From Mobula hypostoma (Eukaryota): a stretch of DNA of 64,000 nucleotides. The stretch is from NCBI RefSeq assembly GCF_963921235.1, contig NC_086097.1:5642001-5706000 (forward strand). The letters run 5' to 3'. Position 1 is the stretch's first letter. Each line of letters opens with the position of its first letter. This document shows, piece by piece, positions 9,180 to 44,040 of the stretch. The notes beneath the pieces are model-generated. The model was given only the letters and a program-made list of their open reading frames with translations, did not search any database and had not been told where the DNA came from. A program made the position numbers and the translations under genes.

Positions 9180-9478
9180 ATGAAGAAATTCCAAGGTATC
9201 ACACACAAAATGCTGGAGGAACTCAACAGGCAAGGCAGTGTCAGTGGAGGGGGATAAAGAGTCGATGTTTCAAGCTGAGACCCTTCATCAGAACTGGAAG
9301 AGAAGAGGAGGTTGGGAGGAGAGGAAGGTGGTAATGGGTGGGTGGGTGGGTGGGTTAGGGAGGATGAAGTAAGCAGCTGGGAGTCGATATGAGAATATGG
9401 TAAAGAGTAAAAGAAGCAGGAAGCTGACCGGTGACAACAATGGACCGTGGGAGAAAGGGAAGGAGGAAGCAAAATGAG
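9180..9478 (-). mobile_element. Penelope-like element 3' fragment
   Basis: Family tail TGCTGAGTTCCTCCAGCATTTTGTGTGT, hammerhead motif and pyrimidine-rich tract, all shared with 39434-39850. Confidence 0.75.
9259..9296 (-). ncRNA. Minimal hammerhead ribozyme motif (PLE-associated)
   Basis: Minus strand CAGTT-CTGATGA-AGGGTCTCAGCTT-GAAA-CATC-GACTC. Confidence 0.6.
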
Positions 9479-9683
9479 AATCAGATTTAAGATCACCAGA
9501 TATGTTGTGAAATGTGTTAACTTCCAACACTAGTCCTATGTTCTAGGTTCTATTTCCTAACAGATCAAAGTTCAAAGTATATTTATTATCAAAGTATGTA
9601 TACTATATACAACATTGAGATCCATCTCCTTGCAGGCAGACACATGATAAATAAGTATAGAGAAAAAAGCTGACTAACACTAA

Positions 9684-9714
<31 letters not shown>

Positions 9715-10420
9715 TATTCAGTTTAGTGAGCAGAGCAGCGGACACCCCGGCTGAAATCTGGAGGAAAACATACAGAGGATGCAGAGGGGGATCACAAAGG
9801 TGAGGAAAGCGGACCGGGTCAAGACAACAGAGATTTATGGAAAAGAGAAGTTGGGTGGGTAATAAAATGGACGAGTTCACGGCGCTAGCCAGGCATCAGA
9901 GAACATTTCGGGAGTGCAGTGTTATGTGTTTTACTGGAACGGGGCTGCACGAGGACATACCCGATCAAAACTTTTCCATGGACGGCTTCCAGACCGTTCG
10001 GGCTGACCGGAAGTGCACTGAGAGTGGTAAGCGTGAAGGAGTTGGGGGCTTACTGTTCTGTTTAACAACAGATGGTGCAATCCAGGTCATATTACGATTG
10101 AGGAACGTGTTTGTAGACCAGATATTGAACTTTTTGCTGTTGGACTCTGGCCATATTCCACTGAGATACAACACTGGGTATCATGGGAGGTTATTCTTGC
10201 CTGTGGCCATCGAACATGCAGCTCCTCCCATGGAGGATCAGACACCCTGAGCGAATAGGCTGGTCCTGGACTTATTTCCATCTGGCATAGTTTGCATTTT
10301 GATGTTTGATTGTTTGTGGTTTTTGTATTGCTATATTTATGTTCTGTTCTTGGTTGGTGCAGCTGTAATGAAACCCAATTTCCCTCAGGATCAATAAAGT
10401 ATATCTATCTATCTATCTAC
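9715..10420 (+). mobile_element. Non-autonomous Rex1/Babar LINE derivative (endonuclease N-part fused to 3' end)
   Basis: NKMDEF..FRECSVMCFT..LHEDIPD..DGFQTVRADR..ESGKR (APE endonuclease start) joined at ~10157 to the ORF2 C-terminus and a (TCTA)n tail. Confidence 0.8.
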
Positions 10421-10549
10421 TACGGAGGGTAGTACCCATGATGGAGCTGACTAATTTTACAAGTTTATACAACTTATTTTGATCTTGTGCAGAAGCCTCC
10501 CACCCCCCATACCAAATGGTGATTCAGCCAGCAGGGACACCAGACTGGT

Positions 10550-10805
10550 TCACTGCCCTATCCTATCAGATTACTTCTTCTTCCACATTTTACCTCCTAG
10601 CTTTTTATTGTATTCCTGCTCCCCCACCCAACACCCACTCACTTGCTAATTTGAACACCTCCCTCTCCCACCACCTTCTTGTTCTGGCTTCTGCCCCCTT
10701 CCTTTTCAGTCCTGATGAAGGCTTTCGACCCAGGGTGTTGACTCTTTATTCCTCTCCACAGATGCTGGCTGACCTGCTGAGTTCCTCCAGCAGTTTGTGT
10801 TTTTT
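10550..10805 (+). mobile_element. Penelope-like 3' fragment with decayed hammerhead (10707-10743)
   Basis: CAGTC-CTGATGA-AGGCTTTCGACC...GTTGACT with GAAA lost, followed by the family tail. Confidence 0.65.
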
Positions 10806-11069
10806 TTCCAAATTATCATGGATTGAGATTCTTCAAAATATTTTAAACCAGAAAATCAAAGCTAGACTGTAATCCTAAATTTACATATGCAACTATTACA
10901 ATTCTTAACTCATAGACATTCATTACTTCTGGTAGGCGTGGACCATCAGCTTCAAAGACTGACTGCCTGTAAAAATAGTAATATTAACCAAAAGCAATTT
11001 TGATCTAATTGATCTGGAATATCTTTGTTTATTTATGTCTTTAAAGTAAAGCTGGTGGTTGGTTCCTTA

Positions 11070-11270
11070 AGATTGGCATTATCAGGGGTTGGGATAAGCT
11101 TCCACTACCCATTAAATGCTCCCAATTGCCTACGTCTCTAATAAGTTCTGACAATCATGTCCAGCTCCTAGCCTTCACGTCTGGCTTAGCTATTAAGCCC
11201 AGCAGAACTGTTTCTACTGATGAGAGAAGGGGCAAAGGTGGGTTACTGGCCCTAAAACCAGTTGCTTCGG
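11070..11270 (+). mobile_element. RTE-related non-autonomous repeat (family R1), partial
   Basis: Matches the reverse complement of 14350-14490/15340-15400, 38100-38300 and 44790-44950. Confidence 0.55.
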
Positions 11271-11600
11271 GACTTTTTCCCAGGGTTGAAATGTCTAATA
11301 CCAGACGGCATGCAATTAAGGTGAGAGGGGGTAATTTCAAAGGAGATGTGAGGGACAAGTTTTTTCCACAGGGAGTGGTGGGTGCCTGGAATGAATTGCC
11401 TGGGGTGGTGGTAGAGGCAGATATATTACAGACTTTCAAGAGACTTTTAGATAGGCATGTGAATGTGAGGAAAATAGAAGGGTACTGACCTTATGTTGAC
11501 AGAAGCGATTAGTTCAGTTGGCTATTTGATTATTAATTTATTTGGCTTGGCATAACATTGTGGTGGAAGGGCCTGTTCCTGTGCTGTTCTATGTTCTAGG
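11270..11600 (+). mobile_element. CR1 LINE 3' end
   Basis: LFPRVEMSNTRRH..KFFPQGVVGAWNELP..FKRLLDRH and 3' UTR GAAGGGCCTGTT..TGTTCTATGTTCTA. Confidence 0.85.
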
Positions 11601-12042
11601 TTCTATTTCCTAACAGGTCAAAGTTCAAAGTACATTTATTATCAAAGTATGTATACTATATACAACCTTGAGATCCATCTCCTTTCAGGCAGACACAAAG
11701 TACATCAGTGATTCTAATTCCAATTCTAAATGTTCTAATTGTTCCTGCTCCAACCACTTCCTCTGTCAGCTTCTTCCATATACACACCACCCTCTGTATG
11801 AAGAAACTGCTCCTCAGTTCCTCTCTCTATGCCCTCTAGTTTCCTCTGGGAAAAATTCTCAGTGCATTTGCCCTGTCTACGACTCTCATGATTTTATACA
11901 CCTCTGTAAGATCTCCCTTCCATTTCCAACAATCCAAGGAATGAAATTCTCATCTGTCCAATCTTTCCCTATGACCCAGGCCCTCGAGTCCTGGCTGGAT
12001 TCTCATCAATATAGATGTATGATAGCAAAACATAAATATATA

Positions 12043-13763
12043 CAGTGGATGCCGGTTAATTGGATCACATCAGGACATTTTGGCCTAATTAAGCATCTGC
12101 CCCAATTAGCCAAAGTTTCATGGAATTAGTTAAAAAGTATAAGAGACAAGCTGAATAACAAGCTATGTATTTAAATGAAATACAAAACAAATTAGAACAC
12201 TACCAATACTACTGCAGTACTGTAAAACTACAGTATATTAATTCCTAATAGTTATCAACAGAGGAATTCATCCAGTGTACGGATAAACAAAATCAGTGTA
12301 GTCAATCAGAACAGATATTAGACTACCTTCATGCAATGCTGTTGATGATTGCATCCTCCAATCTTCATTTTCATTTTAATATTACAGACAATTGCTGGTA
12401 CCTTCAAATTCTTCACAATTTCTAACTTAGTGAATTAGTGAAATCATTTCATTTTCACTCCCAGCCATTTCTGGCTTCTCCAAATCTGAATGCTTGAAAC
12501 TACAGACAGCAAAATATTTCAGAATAGTGTCACATACCCTGTGATGGGTTAAAGAACCAGCAGAGATGGGAAACACTTTGGAGTCCAGTATTGCTATTAA
12601 CTAATGATATTTATTAGTAACTATGCAATATAGTAATATAAATGTAGATAAATCAAACAGGTTAGCAATGATTATATATAAGTAAGTATATCAATAAGTG
12701 GAGAAATATATATAAAAATCAAGCTTCTTCAAGTCTAGGGGTAAAAAGATACAGTCTTAAAGTTCAGTTCAGTTCGTAGTTTTGAGTTGAGTAGTGATGG
12801 ACAGAGAGAGAGGGAGAGAATTGAGTCTTCAGTTGAACTGACGCCATCGATCTTCTCGTTGTCCTCCGAAATCCTTCAAAAGTCACCGACTGTGACTTCA
12901 ACAAAGGGGACTGGTTTTCTGTGTTGGAGCTATCACCCAGGCAAGGGTGGAAACATGGACAACTCCCCACTGGTCACTGCCTTTCCTTTTCACTGCAAGA
13001 GCTGCTGATCGATCTGCCTGATCGATCCTCCAAGAACCCACTTTTTCTGCAGGCACAACAAAGCTCATTCAGTGTCCAAAACATGTGTCTCTGGTCTATT
13101 ATCTGACCTCCTATTTATCTCACCGTACTGAGTATCAACTGTCATTCAAATAACTTCTTCTTCCTCTCTCTGTGTAAGAAATGCACAAGCAGGCAAATGT
13201 CCTTGTGAAGTATCAACACGCTGCTGAAAAATCAGAACATCGATCGGCCATTAAATAACGTAACCCTCCATCACCATAGCAACTTACGAGCTGCTCGGTG
13301 CCATGTCCAATTCAGCAGAAATCCAAAAGTTAACCGGTTCTTTCTTGTGCCTTAAAATGATGGTCTAACAGTTAGTCTTCATCTCTCTCTCTTTTCAAAA
13401 CAACATGTTGGTGTTAAATAACTTTCTCTCTCTCTTTTCAAAAGCACAGTTCACAGGGGTAATTCAGGACCCCATCACAATAGTCTTACTGTTTATTTCT
13501 CACCAACCAACAGTGACAAAAATCACTTTTTTTTAAACACAAATGAAACTGATGCTACTTAAAAACTGTTCACAAAAGAGCGCATGACTGACGTTAGTTA
13601 CAACCTGTTCAACAACAGTCTCCTGCCCCAAGAAAGTGACCTAGTGTCCCAAATAAGCAAGTGGAATCCCAGCAATTTTCTCAATTAGTTTTTGTTTTTT
13701 AAGAGTTGTGTCAAATAAGTGGCTGCCACAATTAAATGATGGCCCAAATAACCAAATCCATAG
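12043..13763. mobile_element. Tigger/pogo-like non-autonomous DNA transposon, interrupted by a solo LTR
   Basis: Imperfect TIRs CAGTGGATGCCGGTTAATTGG and CCAAATAACCAAATCCATAG, each flanked by TA. Confidence 0.6.
12528..13479 (-). mobile_element. Solo LTR (family A)
   Basis: TGTCAC...ATCACA, 4-bp TSD ATAG (12524-12527 and 13480-13483). Colinear with 2463-3273 apart from an extra segment near 13200-13400. Confidence 0.9.
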
Positions 13764-14019
13764 TATTTCTAATTTCCAGGGCCTAATCCTGAATAAGGTT
13801 ATTTGTTCCCAACTAAAGATCTCCCTATTTTACACATTCACAGATACTATTGGGGCCATTTATCCCACGTAGGAACAGAATTAGCCCATTTGGCCCATTG
13901 AGTCTGCTCCATCATTCCATCAGAACTGATTTATTATCCCTCTCAACCACATTCTCTGCCTTCTCCCGGTAACCTTTGATGCCCTGATTTATTCACATAT
14001 CATAAGTCCCTTTGTTGGT

Positions 14020-15410
14020 CGGGGTCAACCATGGAAGTTACATCCAAGCTGTCAATACACAAGAGAGGGCAGTATGATATGGAGAGCAAGCTGCTGCCCA
14101 AGTAGTAGGGTCCCCTTTTCCACACAACCGATGAATCCAAAGGACCAATGCAGTTTAGAATTAGCAATATTGCGAGAGTTTCCAGTCAGTGTTGAACTTA
14201 AGCTAGGTCTGGCTTATGGGCTCCAGCTCCGAACTTTTCCTCGGGGTTTACCCCCGAAGCCTTCCACATGAGTGGTGATCAGCGGAGGTTTGAGATCAGA
14301 GTTTTCCTTCTCCAAGATGAGCTGCCAACCACGGCTGATGAGCTCCATCTGCCCAAAGTCAGGAACCTGCCTTTGCCCTTCTCCTGTCAGTAGAAACTGT
14401 CCTGCTGCCTCAGGCTTAGAAGCTAAGACGCACCTGAAGGCCAGGAGCCACACTTGGTTGTCAGAGGCTATTTGAGATGCATGTCATTTGTCACGTGATT
14501 GGCAACAATGAATATCAATCGAGTCAGGTTTTATAAAAACAATCAAACATTTATTAAACGCTACTTAATATAAAAAAATAAACAAACAAAAATCTTAACC
14601 GGAAGTAAACTGCTACGCGTCCATTTAACAAACCACCACTCAGTGCTAGTTCTTAAAGTGATAAATGAGAGAACAGTTCTTAAAGTGGTAAATTCAAACA
14701 CAGTTCTTAGAATGGTAAATTCGGAAGTCCAAGAGATTTATACAGTCAATTAGGAGAGAGCTTCCTGAAGTAAAGAATTCCTCGAAGAGACAACGTTAGT
14801 GCCAATCCCAGCCAGATCTTGCCTTGTCCGCAGGATTCATGACGACGGAAATAAAATGGTTTAAAGGCACTGACCTTTTCCTCTGGATACTAGATACTGC
14901 ACAGCCTTTTCTGCTTCTTTTAGGAGAGACTGTCTCATGTTCTTTCTTGAACAAATTCAATAATGGTCGATTCCCTCCAAAACTGCTGAACTTCAGGTTC
15001 CCGTCTTCACTCTCAAATATTACTGAAAAGATACATCAACAAACCTGACAACGATTGGTTAAATTGCTGGCCCAACACTTTTGTACCTTACAACAGAACA
15101 TAAAACTCCGTTTCAAATCAAAACTGCGTCATAAGGCAAATATGCATCAGAGGGGAGTATCTGGCTGATGTTCTAGCTGGAAAACTAACTGCGTCACCCC
15201 AGGGGTCTCCTTTTATTCCAGATGAACATGTCATCATGTAACCTCGTATCGGTGGGAAATTTACATCATGTGACCTCCGCAAGACCACTACATCATCCTC
15301 ATAAGACAGTCACAAGATATCCATAAGGTATGTAACACATTGGGAGCATTAAACAGGTAGTGGGAGCTTATCTCAACTACCAGACCCCAGCTATGACAAC
15401 CTTAAGAAAC
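14020..15410 (-). mobile_element. RTE-related non-autonomous repeat (family R1), split by a solo LTR
   Basis: Contains the RTE 5'UTR-type motif GGAGAAGGAAAACTCTGATCTCAAACC on the minus strand; colinear with the uninterrupted copy at 37730-38310. Confidence 0.65.
14489..15337 (-). mobile_element. Solo LTR (family B)
   Basis: TGTCACG...GTAACA with 4-bp TSD CATT (14485-14488 and 15338-15341). The empty-site sequence is visible in the paralogous repeat near 38230-38255. Confidence 0.85.
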
Positions 15411-15619
15411 CTATTCCTCTGTGCAAAAGTCTTCCCTGCCAGAACACAAGGCCAAGTCCTCTACCTATCTCTCTTTTAGCCCCTTCCTTTCGCACTTCCC
15501 ATTTTATAAAGAATGAAGCAAACTGGAGCAGAACATGAACAATCTGAAACTCCTGATTATCCCATCGCTCCATTCTCTCAGTCTCAGGAATTATATTGGA
15601 GAGAACAACATTACCCAGG

Positions 15620-16515
15620 TGCACACACAAAATGCTGAAGGAATTCAGCAGGTCAAGCAGCATCTATGGAAATGAATAAATAGTCAATATTTGGTTGAAA
15701 ATGTTGACTATGTATTAATTTTTCCGCCACTTCCGCCATACTTCCATACTTCCGCCACCTTCAACAGGATCCCACCACTAAGCACATCTTCCCTCTCTAC
15801 CCCCTTCGCTTTCCGCAGGGATCGTTCCCTCCGCAACTCCCTGGTCCACACGACCCTCCCCACGGATCTCCCACCGGCACTTATCCCTGTAAGCGAAAGT
15901 TCTACACCTGTCCCTACACCTCCTCTCTCCCACTTCAACTCTGCTTCACATTCCCATCCGGATATGTCCATACATGGCATCCTCTACTGCCATGATGAGG
16001 CCAAGCTCAGGGTGAAGGAGCAAAACCTCATATACCGTCTAGGTAGTCTCCAGCCCCTGGGCATGAACTCTTTGAATTCTCCAACTTCCGGTAATTCCCT
16101 CCCTTCCTTATCCCAGTTTCACTCTGCCCCCTTCTCCAGCTGCCTATCATCTCCCTCTTGGTTTTCCCTCCTTCTACTACCCATTGTGTTTTCCCCTATT
16201 CTTTCTTCACCTTTCCTGCCTGCCTCCCCTCCCCCACCCCTTTATCTTTCCCCTTACTGGTTTTTCACCTGGAACCTACCAGCCTTCTCCTTCCCACCCT
16301 CCCCCCACCTTCTTTATAGGGCCTCTGCCCCTTCCCTCTACAGTCCTGACGAAGGGTTCCAGCCGGAAACATTGACTGGTCGTTTCCACAGATGCTGCCC
16401 TACCTGCTGAGTTCCTCCAACGTGTTGTGCGTGTTGCTTTGACCCAAACATCTACAGAATATTTTGTATTCATTTCCATAGATGCTGCCTGGCCTGCTGA
16501 ATTCTTCCTGCATTT
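15620..16515 (+). mobile_element. Penelope-like element: deleted 3' portion with inverted tail at its 5' end and duplicated tail at its 3' end
   Basis: AFRRDRSLRNSLVH and HFNSASHSHPDMSIHGILYC..EQNLIYRLGSLQP match the ORF at 39860-41011. Inverted tail at 15620-15700, hammerhead at 16341-16378. Confidence 0.85.
16341..16378 (+). ncRNA. Minimal hammerhead ribozyme motif (PLE-associated)
   Basis: CAGTC-CTGACGA-AGGGTTCCAGCCG-GAAA-CATT-GACTG with a perfect 5-bp stem I. Confidence 0.65.
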
Positions 16516-16517
16516 CA

Positions 16518-19130: not shown

Positions 19131-19133
19131 AAT

Positions 19134-19447
19134 GGTTGGCATCTGTTAGTCTTGCGAGACCATGGATCTGCGCCTGGAAAGTCTTCACTCTCCAGGGCGC
19201 AGGCCTGGGCAAGGTTGTATGGAAGACCGGCAGTTGCCCATCTGCAAGTCTCCCCTCTCCATGACACCGATGTTGTCCAAGGGAAGGGCAAGGGCCGATA
19301 CAGCCTGGCACCAGTGTCGTCGCAGAGCAATGTGTGGTTTAGTGCCTTGATCAAGGACACAACACGTTGCCTCGGCTGGGGATCGAACTCACAACCTTCA
19401 GATCGCTAGTCCAATGCCTTAACCACTTGGCCATGTGCCATAAGCCA
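19134..19447 (-). mobile_element. tRNA-derived SINE (A/B boxes, CORE-like segment, RTE-like tail)
   Basis: TGGCCAAGTGGTTAAGG (A box), GAGTTCGATCC (B box), GTGTCCTTGATCAAGGCACTAAAC. Second copy at 31424-31690. Confidence 0.8.
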
Positions 19448-22349: not shown

Positions 22350-22830
22350 GAGCACACACAAAATGCTGGAGGAACTCAGCATGCATGGTAGCAACTATGG
22401 CAAAGAGTAAACAGTCAACGTTTCGGGCCGAGACCCTTCATCAGAACTGGAAATGAAGGGGAGAAGTCAGAGTAGGATCAGGGAAGGGGAAGCAGAAGGC
22501 GATAGGTGAAATAAGGAGAAGAAGAAGTGTTGAAATAAAGACCTAGGATCCTCAGAGGGTCGAATTGAGAAGCTTGAAAATGTCTCTGGAAGCCATATGG
22601 CACAAGATGGTGGTGAAGACAAGTTGCCAGGAAGTGTATGTGGCTGTGGTAGTGGGTTGGGGTGAGCACAGAGTCAAAGAGTCGGAAGGCGGCAGAGATC
22701 ACAGAGCGGGAGCAGTGAGAAAGAGTATCACTGAATTCCCATCGAAGGCAAGACTTAAGCTTCTTCAGGGTAGGAATCCCTCAAAGAGATTTTGCAGTAG
22801 TAGTAGTAATGAGCAAAAAAATCTTCAACT
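22350..22830 (-). mobile_element. Internally deleted Penelope-like element (ORF N-terminus fused to 3' tail)
   Basis: ISAAFRLFD..HSHIHFLATCL..LVPYGF (PLE N-terminal HxxFLxxCL..LVPxG-type motif) is followed within ~100 bp by the hammerhead and family tail. Confidence 0.65.
22412..22449 (-). ncRNA. Minimal hammerhead ribozyme motif (best-preserved copy)
   Basis: Minus strand CAGTT-CTGATGA-A-GGGT(CTCG)GCCC-GAAA-CG-TT-GACTG: intact core, stem II and ACGT palindrome. Confidence 0.75.
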
Positions 22831-25944: not shown

Positions 25945-26442
25945 AAAGGCAGAATCTCTCAGTGGCTACCCACTTCAGTCCCATCCTGACATGTCTGCAT
26001 GTGACCACCTCTACTGCCATGATGAGCCTAATCTCTGGTAGTCTCCTACTTGATGGCATGAACATCAATTTCTCTAACAACCGGTAATTTTTACCCTGTA
26101 CCTCCTTCTCTCTTTTTTCCCATTCCTCATTCTGGTTACCCTCTCACGCATTCTCCACCTCCTCAACTGCCCATCACCTCCCTCTGGTTTCCCTTCTCCT
26201 TCCCTTTATTCCAAAGTAGATTGTCATCTTCGATTAGATTCCTTCTTCTTCAGCCTTTTTCCTCTTCCACCTCTCCCCTCCCATTTTTTACTTCATTTAC
26301 CCTCCCACAGCTGTCCATCTACCCCCTCACTTGGTCTCACCTTCACCTGCCAGCTAGTCATCCTTCCCTCCATCACATTCTTAGCCTTCTTCGCCTTTCC
26401 TTCCAGCACTGATGAAGGTTCTCAGCCCAAAAAGTCAACTTT
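25945..26442 (+). mobile_element. Penelope-like 3' fragment with decayed hammerhead (~26404-26440); remaining tail at ~27730-27830 beyond the CR1 insertion
   Basis: CTACTGCCATGATGAG segment, pyrimidine tract, CTGATGAAGGTTCTCAGCCCAAAAAGTCAACT. Confidence 0.65.
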
Positions 26443-26444
26443 TC

Positions 26445-27728: not shown

Positions 27729-28847
27729 TTTTTATTTCCCTCCATTAATGCTTCCTGACTTGCTAAGTTCCTCAGCATTTTGTGGGTGTTACTTAAAATT
27801 TCCAGCACCTGCTAAATGCCTAGTGTTTATGAAAGGTTGGCATGTCTCACATTTTGATCAATAGTTATAAGGCACATCAATGATAGAATAATGTAGGACA
27901 GAAGCGTTTGATGAATCTGAGAGTAGGTTAAAGGGTCAGCACAACATTGTGGGCTGAAGGGGCTGCACTGTGCTGTAATGTTCTATATTCAATGTAATAT
28001 CATCCATTGATGCTGGGAATGTTGTGTCAATGGACAGAAGAGAGACAGGAACCTGAAGATCCACTTTTGACAATTCAGGAACAGTTTCATTCTGTCCACT
28101 ATCAGATTTCTGAATGGTCCATGAACACTAACTCGTTCTTTTTTGTTGTGTTTTGCAATTTATAGTAATTCTATGTCTTGCGTACTGTGACCAAAAAACA
28201 ATAAATCTCAGATCATATAAATCAGGGATAATTAATCTTATTATGACTTGCATATGCTCTACTTCCATTCAACGAAACAGAATTTTGCAAGTGGAGAACA
28301 ATAGAAACTCTTTTGAACATCTTTAGGTGGTGGGGTGGAGTTACGTCTCAACCCAAAGAGGCGTAAGGTGCTCTTTTCCTCCGCTAGTCTGGAGGCCATC
28401 CTTAGGTAAGGTGTAACACTTGCTTCGCCCCTGATCTCTGAAGTGTATTGATAGTGGCTGGGGTTACCCTTCTTGTAAAGACATTGCCCAGAAGAAGGCA
28501 ATGCAAACCACTTCTGAAGAAATATTTGCCAAGAACTATCAAGATCATGGAAAGATATGAACGCCCACATCATACAACATGACAAAGAGTGCAATAAACA
28601 AATCAAATGGCTGACTAAATGAAACACTTCCATACAAATGATGTCTATGTCCTTCCATTTTCCTCACATTCTTTTACCTATCAAAATATTCTTCTCATGG
28701 GCCACAGAGCCAGGTATAGTAACATATAACATCTCACTAAACATTCAATGCCTAACCGAAAAAAAATCAGTCAGTTTGTACTTAATGTAATCTGCTGTTT
28801 TATTTTATATGTGGTCACTTACAATTTACAAAAACATTTGACGACAG

Positions 28848-29470
28848 CAACACACACAAAATGCTGGAGGAACTCAGCAGGTCAGGCAGCATTTATGAAA
28901 ATGAATAAACAGTCAATGTTTCAGGCTGAGACCCTCCATCAGGACTGGAAAGGAGAGGGAAAGATGCGAAATAAGAAGATGGGGGAAGGGGGGGAATGCA
29001 AGTTAGCAGGTAATAGGTGAAAGCAGGTGAGGGGGAAGGTGGGTGGGTGGGGGAGAAATGAAGAAGTAAGAAGCTGGGAGGCAATTGGTTCAAAAGGTAA
29101 AGAGCTGAAGAAGAGAGACTGAAGAGTTACCAGAGTTTGGAGGAATTGATGTTCATGCTGTCAGGTTGGAGGCTACCCAGACAGAACATGAGGAATTGCT
29201 CTTCCAACCTGAGAGTGTCCTCTTCATAGCAGAAGAGAGGATCTTGGACTGATATGTCGAAGTGGGAGCAGAGATTGGAATTAAAATAGTTGGCCACTGG
29301 GAAATTCTGCTTTTTGGAGATGGAGTAGAAATGCTTGACAAAGCAGATCCCCAATCTACCAATCTATGTTGGGTCTCACCAATGTAGAGGAGATCACATC
29401 AGAAACATCAGATACAGTAGGTGACCCCAACAGATTCACAGATGAAGAGTTGTCTTACCTGGAAGGACTA
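28848..29470 (-). mobile_element. Penelope-like 3' fragment with hammerhead-like motif (28910-28947)
   Basis: KKQNFPVANYFNS..LRLEEQFLMFCLGSLQPD; CAGTC-CTGATGG-AGGGTCTCAGCCT-GAAA-CATT-GACTG (one core substitution). Confidence 0.8.
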
Positions 29471-29829: not shown

Positions 29830-30300
29830 TGGGCACTCATTTCCCATTCCCATTCTAACATAGCGGTTCATGGCCTTCTCTACTGTCATGATGAAGCCAC
29901 ACTTAGGTTGGGGGAGCAACATCTCATATTATGTCTGGGAAGCCTCCAACCTGATGGCAATTTCTCCACCCTCTCGCTTCTATCTTTTTCCATTTGCCAT
30001 TCTGGTTATTCCCCTACCTCATCTCCTCTCCTTAAATGCCCAACACCTCCCTCTAGTGCCTCTCCTCCTTCCCTTTCATCCATGATCCACTCTCCTCTCC
30101 TATCAGATTCCTTCTTCTCCAGTCCTTTGCCTTTTCCACCCATCACCTCCCATTTTCTTACTTCATCACTCCTCCCCATCCATCTGGCTTCACCTGTCAC
30201 CTTCCAGTTTGTCCTCCTTCCCCTTCCTCCACCTTCTTATTCTGGCTTCTACCACCTTCCTTTCCAGGCGTGATGAAGGGTCTCACCCCAAGATGCTTAT
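29830..30300 (+). mobile_element. Penelope-like 3' fragment, decayed
   Basis: HSHSNIAVHGLLYCHDEATLRLGEQHLILCLGSLQPDG; decayed GTGATGAAGGGTCTC near 30270. Confidence 0.75.
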
Positions 30301-36545: not shown

Positions 36546-37729
36546 GAAGAGAATATAAAATGCCCAGGATGGAGAAAGCCCTTGGATTTAGGACGAGAAT
36601 ACTAACATTCCGTTTCAGAGCATGGTCTAGAAGCTGACTGCGGTGGACAGGAGGGCTCTACTCAAAACTGCCAGGTACCAGCCTATCCACCATCAAGGAA
36701 ATATATACAGAAAGGTGCCAGAACAAGGCCAGCAATATCATGAAGGATCTGAGTCACCCTGCTCATGGACTGTTTGTCCCACTTCCATCAGGGAGGAGGC
36801 TATGTAGCATCCACGCTAGGACCACCAGACTCAAAGAGAACCAGAAAGGATTAGAATTCTCCCATGCCATTTGATTTTTATATTGTCTTTGTTCATCCTA
36901 AATAGAATTATAATTTATCATTAAAATAATCAGTAATATGAAGTATAAGGTCTTAAAGCATTGAGACCACCAGACTAAAGAAGTTATTTTTTCCAAGCAG
37001 TAAAGCTGAAAAACACTTCCCCCCACTAACCCACCCTTCCACCACTGCTTTATCACTTCCTATCAGACACCATGTGTGCAGACTTTCCTGTGCCTAATGT
37101 CACATTACGGACACAGAATCAATCTATGTAAATAAGCTATCTTATGTATTTATATTTATTGTGTTTTTTATCATTGTGTTCTTTATCTTAGTGTGTATTT
37201 TTGTGCTGCATCAGATCCGGAGTAACAATTACTTCATTCTCCTTTACACACGCATACATGAAACTATTGTGATAATCTTGAATCATCCATTTCAGTTCAT
37301 CCTTCACTTATTCCAAAATGTTGTAACTGTTCCTGGGCATTCATTGTATCATGGAATGATGTATTAAATGGAAAGGTAAAACGGTACTCTGCTGTTGTAA
37401 TCGCCTAGCTTTGAAGGGGGAGTTCCGGCTCTCACTATTATTTGGCGAATAATGACAACTTTCAAGTATCTTGCCTCTAATTCTCCTTGGGGCTTCAGAG
37501 AATTGTTAGATCAGGAAAACATCGACCTTACTACACAATACAGATGTAGGTGTGTAGCAAAGAAATTAAAACAGGCAGTGAAAACTTCCAGAGAGCATCA
37601 CAAACGTTCTGCCTAATAACGTTTTATCTTTGATTATCTTGTATATCTTATTAATAGCATAATTTGGCTAAACTGGCCTGGACTATTAAAACCAGCTTAA
37701 GCCTTAAATGGCATTTCTCAGAGGCCTCC

Positions 37730-38310
37730 AGTGGTCATGCTCAGCCACAGATGATATGTCCTGGCTGTCTAGACATGCAACGCTGGACAGTACGATATGG
37801 AGGCAAGTTGTTGCCCATGTAGCAAATGACACCCCCCCGCCCACCATGCGTCTGAAGAACCCAAATGAATGGCAGAGACCGACACAGTTTGGCATCATCA
37901 GTGTCGTGGGAGTTTCCAGTCAGCATTGAACTCAGACAAAGACTGTCTTTAGGGTTTTATGTCAGGATTTTTCCCTTGGTGTTTACTCCTGAACCCTTCC
38001 CTATGAGTGGGTATAGCTGCAAGACAACGGAGGTTTGATAACAGAGTTTTCCTTCTCCTTAATGAGCTGCCAACTATGGCAGACAAGCTTCGTCTGTCTG
38101 AAACAACTGATTGTAAAGTGCCAGTAACCTGCATTTTCCCCTTTGCCTGTCAGTGGAAATAGTTTCTCCTGGTTTAATAGCTAAGCCGCATGTGAGCGCC
38201 AGGAGCTAGATTGATTGCCAGAGGCTATTTGAGATGCATGCTATTGGGAGCATTTAGTAGGTAGTGGGAGTTTATTCCTGTTACCACCCCCGGCTATAAC
38301 AACCTTAAAC
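37730..38310 (-). mobile_element. RTE-related non-autonomous repeat (family R1)
   Basis: Colinear with 14020-15410 minus the solo LTR. Confidence 0.65.
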
Positions 38311-39494
38311 AACTAAGACTGACATCACTAAATACAAATAAACTAACTATTATTTTGGTATGTGTTACGCTGAAATGATGGTCTTGCATTTAATCCTTTG
38401 GGATTGGGATTCAAGGATGTTAACATTCTCTCAGTTTGCAAAATCCTCCCTAAGATATTGAGAAATTGACATGTAAAGCAGCGGTGTTCCAATTTCCTGC
38501 CACAGTCCGAAGATGAACTGGTGAGTAGGTTAATTTGTCATTACAAATTGTCCCGTAATGAGGCTGGGGTTAAGTTGCTGGGGTGCAGCTTACTTTGTGC
38601 CGTATTTCTTAATAAACAAATAAATTAGTTTGAGACTTTTGCTTGTTTATGTAGAGTTTTCTTGGTAACTTCTGTTGTATTTCTTTATTTTTCCTGTAAA
38701 TGCCTGCAAGAAAATGAATCTCAAGATAATATATGGTGACATATATGAACTTTGATAATAAATAATATTTTGAACTTTGAAATTTTGCTTTCAAATTTGA
38801 ACTTTGAACTCCATGGTGGCACAGCCATTATCATAATGCGATTTCAGTGCCAGTGACCAGGGTATAATACCTGCTGCTGACTGTGAGGAGATAATAAGTT
38901 TTCCCTGTAATTGAGTGTGTTTCCTCCAGATGCTCTGCTATCCGCCCACACTTCAAAACATGTTTGAGTTAGTAATTGGTCACGAGGGTGTAATTGGGTG
39001 ATTGTGGCTCATTGGGCTGGTAGGGCCTGTTACCCTGCTTTATATCTATTAAACAAAAGCAAATAAATAAGTAAGCGAGGGTTAAGAGACTCATATGAGT
39101 TTCTATTTGAAGATGAAGTTGAGTGAGAGCAGTACCTAACACATTTGTCCTGATGGGAGATTTTATTTTCCTAAATATTGATTGGCATCTCCCTAGAGCA
39201 AGGGGTTTAGATGGGGTGGAGTTTGTTAGGTGTTTTCAGGAAGATTTCCTGACACAATATGTAGATAAGCCTACAAGAGGAGAGGCAGTACTTGATTTGG
39301 TCTTGGGAAATGAACCTGGTCAGGTGTCAGATCTCTCAGTGGGAGAGAATTTTGGAGATAGTGATCATAACTCTATCTCCTTTACAATGGCATTGGAGAG
39401 GGATAGGACCAGACAAGGGAGAAAAGCGTTTAAGCAAACACATCAAAGTTGCTGGTGAACGCAGCAGGCCAGGCAGCATCTCTAGGAAGAGGTA

Positions 39495-39532
39495 CAGTCG
39501 ACATTTCAGGCCGAGACCCTTCGTCAGGACTA
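39495..39532 (-). ncRNA. Minimal hammerhead ribozyme motif (PLE-associated)
   Basis: Minus strand TAGTC-CTGACGA-AGGGTCTCGGCCT-GAAA-TG-TC-GACTG; GUC triplet retained. Confidence 0.75.
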
Positions 39533-39859
39533 ACTGAAGGAAGAGTTAGTAAGAGATTTGAAAGTGGGAGAGGGAGGGGGAGATCCAAAATGATAGGAGA
39601 AGACAGGAGAGGGAGGGATGGAGCCAAGAGCTGGACAGGTGATAGGCAAAAGGGATATGAGAGGATCATGGGACAGGAGGTCCGGGGTAAGAGACGGCGG
39701 GAGGGGGGAACCAGAGGATGGGCAAGGGGTATAGTCAGAGGGACAGAGGGAGAAAAAGGAGAGTGAGAGAAAGAATGTGTGTATAAAAATAAATAACGGA
39801 TGGGGTACGAGGGGGAGGTGGGGCATTAGCGGAAGTTAGAGAAGTCGATGTTCATTCCA

Positions 39860-41011
39860 TCAGGCATCAGGTTGGAGGCTACCCAGACGGAATATAAGGA
39901 GTTGTTCCTCCAACCTGAGTGTGGCTTCATCTTTACAGTAGAGGAGGCCGTGGATAGACATGTCAGAATGGGAATGGGATGTGGAATTAAAATGTGTGGC
40001 TACTGGGAGATCCTGCTTTCTCTGGCGGACAGAGCGTAGGTGTTCAGCAAAGCGGTCTCCCAGTCTGCGTCGGGTCTCACCAATATATAGAAGGCCACAT
40101 CGGGAGCACCGGACGCAGTATATCTCCCCAGCCGACTCACAGGTGAAGTGTTGCCTCACCTGGAAGGACTGTCTGGGGCCCTGAATGGTGGTAAGGGAGG
40201 AAGTGTAAGGGCATGTGTAGCACTTGTTCCGCTTACACGGATAAGTGCCAGGAGGGAGATCAGTGGGGAGGGATGGGGGGGATGAATGGACAAGGGAGTC
40301 GCGTAGGGAGCAATCCCTGTGGAAAGCAGAGAAAGGGGGAGAGGGAAAGATGTGCTTAGTGGTGGGATCCCGTTGGAGGTGGCGGAAGTTACGGAGAATA
40401 ATATGTTGGACCCGGAGGCTGATGGGGTGGTGGTGGTAGGTGAGGACCAGGGGAACCCTATTCCTAGTGGGGTGGCGGGAGGATGGAGTGAGAGCAGGTG
40501 TGCATGAAATGGGGGAGATGCGTTTGAGAGCAGAGTTGATAGTGGAGGAAGGGAACCCCCTTTCTTTAAAAAAGGAGGACATCTCCCTCGTCCTGGAATG
40601 AAAAACCTCATCCTGAGAGCAGATGTGGCGGAGACGGAGGAATTGCGAGAAGGGAATGGCGTTTTTGCAAGAGACAGGGTGAGAAGAGGAATAGTCCAGA
40701 TAGCTGTGAGAGTCAGTAGGCTTATAGTAGACATCAGTGGATAAGCTGTCTCCAGAGACAGAGACAGAAAGATCTAGAAAGAGTAGGGCCGTGTTGGAAA
40801 TGGACCAGGTAAACTTGAGGGCAGGGTGAAAGTTGGAGACAAAGTTAATAAAGTCAACGAGCTCAGCATGCATGCAGGAAGCAGCGCCAATGCAGTCATC
40901 GATGTAGCGAAGAAAAAGTGGGGGACAGATACCAGAATAGGCATGGAACATAGATTGTTCCACAAAGCCAGCAAAAAGGCAGGCATAGCTAGAACCCATA
41001 CGTGTGCCCAT
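39860..41011 (-). CDS. Penelope-like RT/GIY-YIG polyprotein, C-terminal 383 aa (truncated retroelement ORF, not a host gene)
   Basis: YIDD RT motif and GIY-YIG motif (IYC..LYIGET) in one uninterrupted frame. Confidence 0.8.
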   Translation of the reverse strand: MGTRMGSSYACLFAGFVEQSMFHAYSGICPPLFLRYIDDCIGAASCMHAELVDFINFVSNFHPALKFTWSISNTALLFLDLSVSVSGDSLSTDVYYKPTDSHSYLDYSSSHPVSCKNAIPFSQFLRLRHICSQDEVFHSRTREMSSFFKERGFPSSTINSALKRISPISCTPALTPSSRHPTRNRVPLVLTYHHHPISLRVQHIILRNFRHLQRDPTTKHIFPSPPFSAFHRDCSLRDSLVHSSPPSLPTDLPPGTYPCKRNKCYTCPYTSSLTTIQGPRQSFQVRQHFTCESAGEIYCVRCSRCGLLYIGETRRRLGDRFAEHLRSVRQRKQDLPVATHFNSTSHSHSDMSIHGLLYCKDEATLRLEEQLLIFRLGSLQPDA

Positions 41012-43289
41012 AGAAAAGCATTTAATTGGAGTAAGGGGAGTTATGAGGCTATCAGGCAGGAAATTGGAAGCTTAAATTGGAAACAGGTGTTCTCAGGGAA
41101 AAGTACGGAAGAAATGTGGCAAATGTTCAGGGGATATTTGTGTGGAGTTCTGCATAGGTACGTTCCAATGAGACAGGGAAGTTATGGTAGGGTACAGGAA
41201 CCGTGGTGTACAAAGGCTGTAATAAATCTAGTGAAGAAGAAAAAAAAGCTTACAAAAGGTTCAGAGAGCTAGGCAATGTTAGAGATCTAGAAGATTATAA
41301 GGCTAATAGGAAGGAGTTTAAGAAGGAAATTAGGAGAGCCAGAAGGGGCCATGAGAAGGCCTTGGCAGGCAGGATTAAGGAAAACCCCAAGGCATTCTAC
41401 AAGTATATGAAGAGCAAGAGGATAAAACATGAAAAAATAGGACCTATCAAGTGTGACAGTGGAAAAGTGTGTACGGAACCGGAGGAAATAGCAGAGGTAC
41501 TTAATGAATACTTTACCTCAGTATTCACTATGAAAAAGGATGTTGGTGATTGTAGTGATGACTTGCAGCAGACTGAAAAGCTTGAGCATGTAGATATTAA
41601 GAAAGAGGATGTGCTGGAGGTTTTGGAAAGCATCAAGTTGGATAAGTCGCCGGGACTGGATGAGATGTACCCCAGGCTACTGTGGGAGGCGAGAGAGGAG
41701 ATTGCTGAGCCTCTGGCGATGATCTTTGCATCATCAATGGGGATGAGAGAGGTTGCGGAGGATTGGAGGGTTGCGGATGTTGTTCCTTTATTTAAGAAAG
41801 GGAGTAGAGATAGCCCAGGAAATTACAGACCAGTGAGTCTTACCTCAGTGGTTGGTAAGTTGATGGAGAAGATCCTGAGAAGCAGGATTTATGAACATTT
41901 GGAGAGGTATAATATGGTTAGGAATATTCATCATGGCTTTGTCAAAGGCAGGTCATGCCGTACGAGCCTAACTGAATTTTCTGAAGATGTGACTAAACAC
42001 ATTGATGAAGGAAGAGCAGTAGATGTAGTGTATATGGATTTCAGCAAGGCATTTGATAAGGTACCCTTTGCAAGGCTTATTGAGAAAGTAAGGAGGCATA
42101 GGATCCAAGGGGACATTGCTTTGTGGATCCAGAACTGGCTTGCCCACCGAATGCAAAGAGTGGTTGTAGACGGGTCATATTCTGCAGGAGGTTGGTCACT
42201 AGCGGAGTGCCTCAGGGATCTGTTCTGGGACCCTGAATCTTCATGATTTTTATAAATGACCTGGATGAGGAAGTGGAGGGGTAGGTTAGTAAGTTTGCTG
42301 ATGACACAAATGTTGGAGGTGTTGTGGATAGTGTGGAAGGCTGTCAGAGGTTACAGCGGGACATTGATAGGATGCAAAACTGGGCTGAGAAGTGGAAGAT
42401 GGAGTTCAACCCAGTTAAGTGTGAAGTGGTTCATTTTGGTAGGTCAAGTATAATGGCAGAATATAGTATTAATGGTAAGAGTCTTGGCAGTGTGGAGGAT
42501 CAGAGGGATCTTGGGGTCCAAGTCCATAGGATGCTCAAAGCAGCTGCGCAGGTTGACTCTGTGGTTAAGAAGACATACGGTGTATTGGCCTTCATCAATC
42601 GTGGAATTGAATTTGGGAGCCGAGAGGTAATGTTGCAGCTGTATAGGATCCTGGTCAGACCCCACTTGGAGTACTGTGCTCAGTTCTGGTCGCCTCACTA
42701 CAGGAAGGATGTGGAAACCATAGAAAGGATATTGAGGAGATTTACAAGGATGTTGCCTGAATTGGGGGGGGGGAGAGCATGTCTTATGAAAACAGGTTGA
42801 GTGAAGTCGGCCTTTTCTCCTTGGAGTGACAGAGGATGAGAGGTGACCTGATAGAGGTGTATAAGATGATGAGCGGCGTTGACCATGTGGATAGTCAGAG
42901 GCTTTTTCCCAGGGCTGAAATGGTTGCCACAAGAGGACACAGGTTTAAGGTGCTGGGGAGTAGGTACAGAGGAGATGTCAGGGGTAAGTTTTTTACTCAG
43001 AGAGTGGTGAGTGCGTAGAATGGGCTGCTGGCAACGGTGGTGGAGGTGGATACGATAGGGTCTTTTAAGAGACTTTTCGACAGGTACATGGAGCTTAGGA
43101 AAATAGAGGGCTATAGGTAAGCCTAGTAATTTCTAAGACAGGGATATGTGGGCTTTGTGGGCTGAAGGTCCTGTATTGTGCTGTAGGTTTTCTGTTTCTC
43201 CTTGGGAAAGGAGAGGGGAGGGTGTCAATGAATTTTTGTTATCCCTATTGGCTTCAGGGTGACATAAGTTGTGAATTCTGAAGAAGATT

Positions 43290-44040
43290 AACAATGCTGG
43301 AAATACTCAACAAGTCAGGGAACATGTATGGAGAGAGCAACACACACAAAATGCTGGAGGATCTCAGCTGACCGCTCAGCGTCTATGGAAAAGATTACAG
43401 TCGACATTTCAGTCTGCTTATCTACTTCTGGTCTCATCAATATACACCAATACTCCATTTGCCACAAAAAGTGGACATTCCAGTAGTCACTCATTTTAAT
43501 TGCACTTCCCATTTCCATTCCAACTGTCAGCCCATGGCCTCCTCTACTGTCGTGATGAATGAACACTTAGTTTGGAGGAACAACACCTTATAATCAATTT
43601 GGGTAGCCTCTAACCTGACTTCTCCAAATTCTAATAATGTCCACGCCCCTTCACCATTCCCCATTCCCATTTCCTTCTCTTACATCTCCTAACCTGCCTG
43701 TCTCCTCCCTTGGGTGCTCCTCCCCCTTTTCTTTCTTCCATGGCCTTCCGTCCTTGGTTATCAAACTCTCCCTTCTCCAGCCCTGTATCTCTTTCACCAA
43801 TGAACTTCCCAGCTCTTTACTTCATCCCTTCCCCTCTTGGTTTCACCGATCACCTGTGTTTCTTCCACCCCCCCCCCCCACCTTCTAACACCGACTCCTT
43901 TTTTTTTCTCCAATCCTGATGAAGAGTCTCGTTCCAAAATGTCAACTGCACTCTGTTCAGTAGATGCTGCCTGGCCTGCTGAGTTCCTCCAGCGTTTTGT
44001 GTGTGTTGCTCGGATTTTCAGCATCTGCAGATTTTCTCTG
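43290..44040 (+). mobile_element. Penelope-like 3' fragment with inverted tail at its 5' end; decayed hammerhead 43911-43948
   Basis: Inverted tail 43290-43412 ending CAGTCGACATTTCAG; forward GIY-YIG C-terminal remnant, pyrimidine tract and tail. Confidence 0.75.

What the first reader, a model, noticed from the sequence alone, without database searches (positions are those of the whole stretch)
9259..43948. Dispersed family of ~9 minimal hammerhead ribozyme motifs carried by Penelope-like elements
Seen: a recurring motif with consensus CAGTC-CTGA(T/C)GA-A-GGGT(CTCG)GCCC-GAAA-CG-TC-GACTG. Better copies lie at 9259-9296(-), 16341-16378(+), 22412-22449(-), 28910-28947(-) and 39495-39532(-). Decayed copies lie at 10707, ~26404, ~30266 and 43911. 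It has the hammerhead core (CUGANGA...GAAA...UH), a 5-bp stem I, a 4-bp stem II, an extra A after the core, and only the palindrome ACGU in place of stem III. Known: Penelope-like elements carry such minimal type-I hammerheads, which are thought to cleave as dimers through the palindromic stem III. Inference: at about one copy per 7 kb here, this genome may hold a very large number of ribozyme motifs, and sense-oriented copies could cleave host pre-mRNA. Most decay sits at CpGs in ACGTCG.
Basis: partly seen in the sequence, partly recalled or inferred. Interest (0 to 1): 0.75.

Follow-up and report, generated by a model that had tools for sequence, protein, structure and literature searches.

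The report
Minimal hammerhead motifs in Penelope-like retrotransposons
The repeated motif is the known minimal hammerhead ribozyme carried in the 3' end of a Penelope-like retrotransposon, here amplified to a very large number of copies, most of them dead fragments.

Summary
The motif lies at all nine stated places. CTGANGA-N13-GAAA occurs 4 times in the window against 0.24 expected.

The carrier is a Penelope-like element (PLE). [quoted passage not shown] Genome copies show the PLE hallmarks:
- tandem pseudo-LTRs;
- inverted, 5'-truncated partner copies;
- an optional 32-35-nt tail.

The motif has the published min-HHR features: core boxes, an unpaired A after A9, a 4-bp helix II, no helix III, and a palindromic ACGU. 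No Rfam hammerhead model matches it.

A strict pattern finds 85,487 copies in the 3.48-Gb genome, and 39,061 of them are one identical 33-mer. In the window only 2 of 9 copies keep every feature.

Cleavage is not shown. There is no covariation within the family and folding energies are uninformative. Every retrocopy spans the cleavage site, so its template RNA was uncut there.

Verdict: real and correctly read, a new member of a known kind. The suggestion that it cleaves host pre-mRNA is untested.

The parts
39433..41071 (-). 5'-truncated PLE copy. It comprises an open frame at 39860-41071 (RT motif YIDD, CX4CX2C linker, GIY-YIG), a CT-rich 3'UTR, the min-HHR at 39495-39532 and a tail reaching 39433. 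It is nested in a CR1/L2-like LINE on the + strand.
   Evidence: Pfam GIY-YIG at residues 317-391, E 3.9e-4, 21.1 bits, below the 22.6 cut-off. Translation. HHR passes the descriptor. LINE pieces.
22351..22462 (-). PLE tail copy of the older subfamily. The min-HHR at 22412-22449 keeps all features (GCCC helix II, ACGU, H17 = U).
9200..9310 (-). PLE tail copy. The HHR at 9259-9296 has intact boxes, a weak helix II, a C.A mismatch in the palindrome and a 4-bp stem I.
15946..16438 (+). PLE copy running from the end of the ORF (15946-16107) to the tail. The HHR at 16341-16378 has intact boxes but G.G at the helix II closing pair and a C.A mismatch.
28846..29313 (-). PLE copy running from the end of the ORF (29161-29313) to the tail. 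The HHR at 28910-28947 has the core change A9 to G.
10665..10800 (+). Decayed PLE tail copy. The HHR remnant at 10707-10744 has lost the GAAA box.
25976..26443 (+). Decayed PLE copy with weak ORF-end pieces at 25976-26088. The HHR remnant at 26404-26441 has lost G12, and the tail is cut short.
29842..30288 (+). Decayed PLE copy with the ORF end at 29842-29956. The HHR remnant near 30262-30290 has C3 changed and a deletion after helix II. It lies head-to-head with the copy at 28846-29313(-).
43461..44010 (+). PLE copy running from the end of the ORF (43461-43618) to the tail. The HHR remnant at 43911-43948 has lost G12 and has a broken helix II.
   Evidence: 79% and 71% identity to the 39433-40026(-) copy
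43336..43416 (-). Tail-only copy, 5'-truncated inside the HHR. It is the inverted partner of the copy at 43461-44010(+).
15621..15692 (-). Tail-only copy, 5'-truncated inside the HHR. It is the inverted partner of the copy at 15946-16438(+).
16467..16515 (+). Second tail fragment lying directly after the copy at 15946-16438.
27743..27793 (+). Tail fragment only.

Best explanation
The motif is the minimal type-I hammerhead ribozyme motif (min-HHR) of a Penelope-like retrotransposon. The CX4CX2C linker suggests the Neptune type.

**Position in the element (shown).** The element unit runs: short leader, a frame of about 1040 aa encoding RT and GIY-YIG, a CT-rich 3'UTR of about 300 nt, the 38-nt HHR, then a tail of about 70-105 nt. 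In tandem copies the 3'UTR-HHR-tail block forms the pseudo-LTR just upstream of the next frame.

**What the window copies are (shown).** Almost all are dead, 5'-truncated retrocopies of the 3' end. Several sit as head-to-head inverted pairs.

**How it works (inferred from the published family, not shown here).** A single motif lacks helix III and stays uncleaved. Two sense copies, in a tandem or read-through transcript or on two RNAs, can pair through the ACGU palindrome and swapped stem I strands. That forms a double hammerhead, which cuts 3' of GUC or GUU.

**A constraint that follows from the data.** The RT start sites defined by the 3' ends of insertions lie 70-105 nt downstream of the cleavage site. 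The 3' motif therefore has to stay uncut in any RNA that gets copied. Every one of the roughly 10^5 copies that span the site came from such an uncut RNA.
For: **The motif is real and more than chance.** It recurs at 4 exact matches against 0.24 expected. The descriptor gives 7 hits against 0-1 in shuffles.

**The carrier is a PLE.**
- The window frame at 39860-41071(-) has YIDD, a CX4CX2C linker and GIY-YIG at E 3.9e-4.
- A genome copy has RVT_1 at E 4.8e-5 plus GIY-YIG at E 9e-4 in one 885-aa frame.
- The nearest Atlas clusters carry HTH_animal, DUF8422, GIY-YIG and RVT_1, at score 0.98.
- The HHR lies about 300 nt after the end of the frame in 10 of 11 protein-selected loci.
- The pseudo-LTR or tandem junction is present in both long copies examined.
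- An optional 32-35-nt tail extension equals the start of the next unit.
- Head-to-head inverted pairs number 1,950, 959 and 472 sites at gaps of 0-30, 31-60 and 61-90.
- These are the structural traits listed for PLEs in PMC8557442 and PMC11167929 (passages read).

**The motif matches the published min-HHR** (PMC4209133, whole text read).
- The unpaired A after A9 is at least 90% conserved.
- There is no helix III.
- Positions 15.2-16.2 read CG or UG in 24 of 31 rows.

**The HHR is the best-kept non-coding part between the old and young subfamilies.** The majority base differs at 3 of 38 HHR columns. It differs at 26 of 55 columns upstream, and at 7 of 28 and 13 of 40 downstream. All three HHR differences fall at positions the hammerhead consensus leaves free (N7, H17, and C-G to U.G in stem I).

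**Copy number.** Strict pattern 85,487; one identical 33-mer 39,061; reversed controls 0.
Against: - No Rfam hammerhead model matches, even on 101-nt stretches at E up to 10.
- There is no covariation: 438 of 500 shuffles reach the observed share of paired cells, and only 2 cells have changes on both sides. The sample is one family, so this does not bear on the structure either way.
- The G10.1-C11.1 pair is G.U in 21 of 31 rows. Genome-wide, 39,061 exact copies have U against 5,864 with C. The most prolific lineage therefore departs from a feature that the 2014 paper calls highly conserved.
- Minimum-energy folds do not give the three-way junction. The dimer energy gain (-3.2 to -8.3 kcal/mol in the five better copies) is no better than shuffles (about -8, sd 3.4).
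- Junctions of close direct pairs end exactly at C17 in only 3 loci of the 100 rows listed.
- The Pfam RT and GIY-YIG scores are below the curated cut-offs.
- In published work, min-HHR dimers cleave poorly in vitro (PMC4209133). For an Anolis PLE, ribozyme mutants did not affect insertion in vitro, and no RNA-seq reads ended at the site (PMC11167929, passages).
Confidence: 0.8

Rival explanations
1. The hammerhead-like fold is kept in the PLE 3' end mainly as a structural module for reverse transcription. It would serve RT binding, RNA pairing or template switching. Self-cleavage would be dispensable or even selected against.
For: - All retrocopies span the cleavage site, and the RT start sites lie downstream of it.
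- The dominant lineage has a weakened G.U closing pair: 39,061 copies against 5,864.
- At least 22 independent loci among the 100 rows join two units at the base of stem I (+6/+7 joined to -3/-4). Many inverted pairs also meet within a few bases of the CUGA box.
- Contigs of other runs break repeatedly 4 nt before the box.
- Published work: ribozyme mutants do not change insertion in vitro (PMC11167929), and PLE clades without HHR proliferate well (PMC8557442).
Against: - The invariant core boxes are exactly those needed for catalysis. They are kept between subfamilies while the flanks diverge.
- Related PLE motifs do cleave in vitro, with the expected C3/G8 mutant behaviour (PMC11167929, PMC4209133).
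- The junction hot spots were read off listed rows, not from a complete count. They could reflect amplification of a few dimer-shaped elements.
Confidence: 0.25
2. Most short copies belong to a separate non-autonomous, SINE-like or retrozyme-like element built from the PLE pseudo-LTR and mobilised in trans. They would not be 5'-truncated PLE copies.
For: - Many copies are only 70-160 bp.
- A recurrent 5' boundary lies 4 nt before the box.
- Identical inverted-dimer junctions recur at several loci.
- Rare head-to-tail arrays of 40-62-nt and about 145-nt units exist.
- A 2026 preprint derives animal retrozymes from PLE pseudo-LTRs (10.64898/2026.07.22.740005, abstract and Results read).
Against: - 6 of the 13 window places run on into the end of the PLE frame.
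- 5' limits are spread along the reference.
- Counts of inverted pairs fall smoothly with arm length: 1,950, 959, 472. That pattern is what 5' truncation gives.
- Close direct pairs are rare: 175, 88 and 56 matches, against 85,487 motifs.
Confidence: 0.15
3. The resemblance to a hammerhead is a chance feature of a repeat tail.
For: There is no Rfam hit and no covariation.
Against: - Several features not needed to find the motif agree with the published min-HHR: the extra nucleotide after A9, the palindromic 15.2-16.2, and the place in the PLE pseudo-LTR.
- The core is conserved between subfamilies.
- The reversed-pattern controls are 0.
Confidence: 0.02

Closest known systems
min-HHR motifs of metazoan Penelope-like elements (Cervera and de la Pena 2014, PMC4209133)
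   Same: - Type-I layout with an open stem I of 4-5 bp.
- CUGANGA, GAAA and UH boxes.
- One unpaired nucleotide between A9 and 10.1.
- No helix III, and palindromic 15.2-16.2.
- Location in the flanking repeats of PLEs.
- Most copies are single motifs from truncated elements, and some lie close together on opposite strands.
   Different: - Helix II is 4 bp, not the 7-8 bp described for Schistosoma.
- The dominant copy type has G.U instead of G-C at 10.1-11.1.
- The number of copies (85,487 strict) is about ten times the roughly 4,000 and 9,000 quoted in that paper for coelacanth and Xenopus.
Canonical type-I hammerheads (Rfam Hammerhead_1) and non-LTR retrozymes of animals (PMC7229834; bioRxiv 10.64898/2026.07.22.740005)
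   Same: - Same catalytic core and type-I topology.
- Dimer-dependent activity through a short palindromic helix III region.
- A few loci in this genome hold head-to-tail arrays of HHR units, as retrozymes do.
   Different: - There is no helix III or loop 3 at all, and no Rfam match.
- The copies are overwhelmingly dispersed or inverted, not tandem.
- They are part of an autonomous RT-EN element.
Poseidon PLE of Anolis carolinensis (PAc; PMC11167929)
   Same: - HHR lies in the pseudo-LTR.
- An optional tail of 30-40 bp is explained there by two internal RT start sites.
- The units are arranged in tandem.
   Different: - In PAc the frame starts inside the HHR. Here the first Met lies about 67 nt after the end of the short tail, so the HHR is about 130-170 nt upstream of the frame.
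- The linker here has the extra CX4CX2C motif, which is ascribed to Neptune and Nematis PLEs (PMC8557442).

Membership tests
PLE min-HHR (Cervera and de la Pena 2014) | Core boxes CUGANGA ... GAAA ... UH with the correct spacing | tested here: met
   4 exact matches in the window against 0.24 expected. 7 descriptor hits in 144 kb against 0-1 in shuffles. In the window, 3 of 9 copies pass the descriptor.
PLE min-HHR (Cervera and de la Pena 2014) | [quoted passage not shown] | tested here: met
   Column 25 of alignment A1 is A in at least 90% of 34 rows.
PLE min-HHR (Cervera and de la Pena 2014) | Conserved G10.1-C11.1 pair | tested here: inconclusive
   G.U in 21 rows, G-C in 7 and other in 3, of 31 distinct rows. 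Exact 33-mers: 39,061 with U and 5,864 with C.
PLE min-HHR (Cervera and de la Pena 2014) | No helix III; palindromic 15.2-16.2 | tested here: met
   A15.1 is followed at once by CG or UG and then U16.1. Counts: CG 17, UG 7, other 7, of 31 rows.
PLE min-HHR (Cervera and de la Pena 2014) | Lies in the flanking repeat (pseudo-LTR) of a PLE | tested here: met
PLE min-HHR (Cervera and de la Pena 2014) | Self-cleavage as a dimer | not testable with these tools
   Only contigs of sequencing runs were on offer, with no raw reads. Co-folding was uninformative.
Rfam hammerhead families (type I, II, III, HH9, HH10) | Match to the covariance model, including helix III | tested here: not met
   No hammerhead hit at the gathering score or at E up to 10, on the whole window or on 101-nt stretches.
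Penelope-like element, EN+ type | One frame with a reverse transcriptase followed by a C-terminal GIY-YIG endonuclease | tested here: met
   RVT_1 at E 4.8e-5 and GIY-YIG at E 9e-4 in one 885-aa frame. YIDD and GIY-YIG in the window frame. Both Pfam scores are below the curated cut-offs. Atlas clusters with the same domains score 0.98.
Penelope-like element, EN+ type | Pseudo-LTRs from partial tandems, inverted 5'-truncated partner copies, and an optional 30-40-bp tail | tested here: met
   Tandem or pseudo-LTR junction in 2 of 2 long copies. 3,381 close inverted pairs. A tail of 32-35 nt in some copies, equal to the start of the next unit.
Penelope-like element, EN+ type | RT groups with PLE and telomerase RTs in a phylogeny; clade assignment (Neptune against Poseidon) | not tested
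   Only the CX4CX2C linker motif was seen. It is ascribed to Neptune and Nematis PLEs in PMC8557442.
Non-LTR retrozymes | Head-to-tail arrays of short units, each with a hammerhead | tested here: not met
   None is in the window. Genome-wide there are only 175, 88 and 56 close direct pairs, against 85,487 motifs. Many of those pairs come from a handful of arrays.

The most novel reading that the evidence does not exclude
In this very prolific PLE the minimal hammerhead may act mainly as a folded RNA module that steers reverse transcription. Self-cleavage would be held off or dispensable.

The reasons to consider this:
- Unit junctions of direct dimers, and perhaps of inverted dimers, cluster at the base of stem I.
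- The most successful lineage carries a weakened G.U closing pair.
- All of the roughly 10^5 copies derive from uncut RNA.

If this is right, the PLE habit of inserting as double copies would be tied to the ribozyme fold itself.
Probability: 0.15. Interest if true: 0.6.

Novelty: new member of a known kind. Interest (0 to 1): 0.3.

Why it matters
- It gives a clean, very large natural set of one min-HHR: 39,061 identical copies plus tens of thousands of decayed ones, in a genome where the parent PLE still has many long open frames. That makes it a good system for asking whether PLE hammerheads cleave in vivo.
- The geometry found here sets a testable constraint on the proposed role. The RT start sites lie downstream of the cleavage site, so a copied RNA must be uncut at its 3' motif.
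- For genome annotation, these motifs are PLE tails. They should not be called as independent ribozyme genes.

Tried and rejected
- **Rfam scans.** I ran gathering and E up to 10, on the whole window and on two 101-nt stretches. There was no hammerhead hit, as expected for a motif without helix III.
- **Folding.** RNAfold and RNAcofold of the nine window copies gave minimum-energy structures that pair the core with the 15.2-17 stretch instead of forming the junction. Dimer gain was no better than in 200 shuffles each. This is uninformative.
- **Covariation count** on 34 copies: none. The sample is one family, so the test has no power.
- **Sequencing runs.** No RNA holder was listed and all 22 runs are kept as contigs. 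Laying 4 of the 22 cannot show RNA ends, so there is no evidence on expression or cleavage. It did show thousands of contigs with the family in runs of three coded organisms and 38 in a fourth.
- **Cleavage footprint in DNA.**
  - The two tail-only window copies start about 10-13 nt before the site.
  - Only 3 loci among the 100 listed close direct pairs end at C17.
  - No pile-up at the site is visible in the 5' limits.
- **A larger random genome sample** could not be had. The density estimates therefore rest on 144 kb.
- **Solved structures** gave nothing for the PLE protein.
- **Full-text search** for five motif strings found no paper. 'Hammerhead ribozyme' + Penelope + shark found one review, which uses 'shark' only for the shape.
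- **Chance motif and separate SINE readings** were considered and rated low; see the rival explanations.


Full report
**Observation**

- CTGANGA-N13-GAAA matches four times in the window, at 9268-9291(-), 16346-16369(+), 22421-22444(-) and 39504-39527(-). The expectation is 0.24, and none of 100 shuffles reached four.
- Reading the flanks and a self-comparison shows that the motif is part of a repeat of about 110-160 bp. The repeat has a CT-rich stretch, the 38-nt motif, and then a conserved tail.
- The window holds 13 places of this repeat. Four are tail-only pieces: 15621-15692(-), 16467-16515(+), 27743-27793(+) and 43336-43416(-).
- I wrote a general descriptor that asks for intact boxes, a helix II of at least 3 bp with or without one unpaired base, UH, and a stem I of at least 4 bp. 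It finds 7 motifs in 144 kb (the window plus eight random 10-kb genome stretches), against 0-1 in each of 20 shuffles. All 7 belong to this family, and 3 are in the window.

State of the five 'better' copies:
- 22412-22449(-) and 39495-39532(-) keep every feature.
- 9259-9296(-) has a C.A mismatch in the palindrome.
- 28910-28947(-) has A9 changed to G.
- 16341-16378(+) has G.G at the closing pair of helix II.

**The carrier**

At 39860-41071(-) there is a 403-aa open frame. [quoted passage not shown] Its stop lies about 330 nt upstream of the motif at 39495-39532(-).

The copy is cut off at its 5' side near 41030-41071 and sits inside a CR1/L2-like LINE on the other strand. A second piece at 43461-44010(+) shares the end of the frame (79% identity) and the 3'UTR-motif-tail (71%). 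In all, 6 of the 13 window places run into the end of this frame.

In the whole genome (3.48 Gb, 200 contigs):
- A search with the 403-aa protein gave 227,429 first-look candidates. 103 were scored, and their open frames reach 1,054 aa.
- In 10 of the 11 loci cut out other than the window's own, the hammerhead core lies about 300 nt after the end of the frame. The eleventh, L023, has a changed core.
- One 885-aa frame has RVT_1 (E 4.8e-5, 23.6 bits, cut-off 29.6) followed by GIY-YIG (E 9e-4).
- The nearest ESM Atlas clusters carry HTH_animal, DUF8422, GIY-YIG and RVT_1, at score 0.98.
- Solved structures gave nothing.

Upstream of two long copies, the 3'UTR-motif-tail block stands directly before the frame. 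In one case it is preceded by the frame of another copy. This is the partial tandem that makes a pseudo-LTR.

Some copies end with an extra 32-35 nt. In the tandem junction these are simply the first bases of the next unit. They correspond to the optional 30-40-bp PLE 'tail' that Frangieh et al. explain by two internal RT start sites (PMC11167929, passages read).

Close head-to-head inverted pairs are common. With both CUGACGA boxes intact, there are 1,950 sites with a gap of 0-30, 959 with 31-60 and 472 with 61-90. Four such (-,+) pairs are in the window.

RT plus C-terminal GIY-YIG, pseudo-LTRs, inverted 5'-truncated partners, a tail and an HHR near the 3' end are the traits listed for EN+ PLEs in Craig et al. 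(PMC8557442, passages read). The CX2-5CxxC linker is ascribed there to Neptune and Nematis. I did not build an RT tree.

**The motif as a hammerhead**

Reading 5' to 3', the motif has:
- a stem I strand (CAGUC or UAGUC);
- C3-A9 (CUGAYGA);
- one unpaired A;
- helix II, GGGU/GCCY, with a 4-nt loop;
- G12-A14 and A15.1 (GAAA);
- C15.2 G16.2 U16.1 H17;
- the other stem I strand (GACUG).

There is no helix III. A15.1-U16.1 and 15.2-16.2 form the palindrome ACGU.

Cervera and de la Pena (PMC4209133, whole text read) define min-HHRs of PLEs by just these traits. They name four that their search did not impose:
- consensus families within a genome;
- G10.1-C11.1;
- palindromic 15.2-16.2.

Here the extra nucleotide is at least 90% conserved. 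Positions 15.2-16.2 read CG or UG in 24 of 31 distinct rows.

The G10.1-C11.1 pair is only partly kept: G.U in 21 rows, G-C in 7, other in 3. Genome-wide the exact 33-mer with U11.1 occurs 39,061 times and the one with C11.1 occurs 5,864 times. CpG decay goes from C to T, so the C form cannot derive from the U form by decay. Two lineages must have been active.

No Rfam hammerhead model matches at any threshold tried. This fits a motif without helix III. It also means the motif is not a member of the Rfam-defined families.

**Numbers**

| Pattern | Matches |
|---|---|
| Strict pattern CTGANGAAGGGTNNNNGCCNGAAANNTNGACTG | 85,487 (42,625 forward, 42,862 reverse) |
| Pattern allowing only CpG-type transitions | 73,474 |

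The same pattern read backwards gives 0, and there is no strand bias.

In the 144-kb sample I count 35 places of the repeat (13 in the window, 22 in 80 kb of random stretches; 2 of the 8 stretches had none), which is about one per 4 kb. 7 of them pass the descriptor.

Extrapolation from so small a sample is rough. It points to several 10^5 fragments and on the order of 10^5 formally intact motifs.

For comparison, the papers I read quote:
- about 4,000 min-HHRs in coelacanth and about 9,000 in Xenopus (PMC4209133);
- up to 120,000 canonical retrozyme hammerheads in the roughly ten-fold larger axolotl genome (PMC7229834, passages).

**Is the motif under constraint?**

Within the family there is no covariation. 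87.1% of cells pair, the same as in shuffles (438 of 500 reach it), and only two cells have changes on both sides. That is what dead copies of one recent family would give, so it has no bearing either way.

A comparison of the older and the younger subfamily is more telling (17 and 16 rows; one row dropped at a locus edge). The majority base differs at 3 of 38 motif columns. It differs at 26 of 55 columns upstream, and at 7 of 28 and 13 of 40 columns downstream. The three differences are at N7, at H17 and at a C-G to U.G change in stem I, all allowed by the hammerhead consensus. The upstream part is CT-rich and aligns poorly, which inflates its figure.

**Mechanism**

Shown:
- the position of the motif in the unit;
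- the tandem and inverted arrangements;
- the fact that insertions end 70-105 nt downstream of the cleavage site.

Inferred:
- A lone motif cannot form helix III and stays intact.
- Two sense motifs can form a double hammerhead through ACGU and swapped stem I strands, and then cut after GUC or GUU. This would trim unit-length RNA out of tandem transcripts, as proposed in 2014.

From the geometry it follows that a copied RNA must be uncut at its 3' motif. Otherwise it would lose the RT start sites. Each genomic copy that spans the site records such an uncut template. This agrees with the Anolis result that unprocessed RNA is the main substrate in vitro (PMC11167929).

I found no footprint of cleavage in the DNA:
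- Tail-only copies in the window begin 10-13 nt before the site.
- Only 3 loci of the 100 listed close direct pairs end at C17.

Thermodynamic folding neither supports nor contradicts the dimer. No raw RNA reads were available.

This was not tested, because I had no gene annotation. Published monomers are inactive and dimers are weak (PMC4209133). In inverted pairs the motif would be masked by its antisense copy.

At one intact motif per roughly 20 kb, long introns could hold two sense copies, so the idea is not excluded. A strand-bias test would decide it.

**Verdict**

The finding is real and correctly interpreted. It is a new, very abundant member of a known kind, and it is of moderate interest.

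Noticed in passing
G000 loci outside the window, e.g. C67:45319294-45321457, C50:67866254-67866700, C5:27282264-27282581, C63:13592830-13593147, C190:365085-365257, C5:177667671-177667803: Rare head-to-tail arrays made of little more than the min-HHR, with periods of about 40, 45 and 61-62 nt. The C67 array runs for about 2.2 kb. They resemble very small retrozyme-like satellites, and they are the places where a double hammerhead could form in cis.
   Followed up: partly
rows listed (many contigs of G000); also L014:2488-2579, L017:8493-8585, L010:1497: Junctions of close direct dimers recur at the base of stem I. At least 22 independent loci join GACTG plus 1-2 nt, with 0-3 extra bases, to (A)GTC-CTGACGA. 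Inverted pairs often meet within a few bases of the CUGA box. Contigs of other runs break repeatedly 4 nt before the box. This may be a template-switch hot spot at the folded motif, or it may reflect amplification of dimer-shaped elements.
   Followed up: partly
window 39123-39458(+) and about 41030-43018(+): A CR1/L2-like LINE split by the nested PLE copy. It has an endonuclease-like piece before the PLE, and RVT_1 (E 3.3e-14) with an FADD motif after it.
   Followed up: partly
window 5711-6439(-): An open frame of 242 aa with a strong PNMA (gag-derived) domain match, E 6.4e-40.
   Followed up: no
window 54958-55761(+): An open frame with the C-terminal part of RVT_1 and an ALKBH8_N-like stretch (both E 3e-11). 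It is probably another LINE fragment.
   Followed up: no
window 19375-19433(-): A weak tRNA-like match (23.4 bits, below the gathering score of 29). It may be a SINE head.
   Followed up: no
tail of the element, e.g. window 39433-39494(-) and 28846-28909(-): A short hairpin UGCUG...CAGCA in the tail keeps its stem in the old and young subfamilies while the loop differs (AGUUCCUC against CGUUCAC). It lies close to the 3' ends of insertions and could be an RT recognition element.
   Followed up: no
L010:1080-1680 laid on runs X1, X5, X9, X19: Contigs of runs labelled as three other coded organisms hold the family in thousands of pieces, and a fourth holds 38. The family is therefore shared by several species or samples.
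   Followed up: partly
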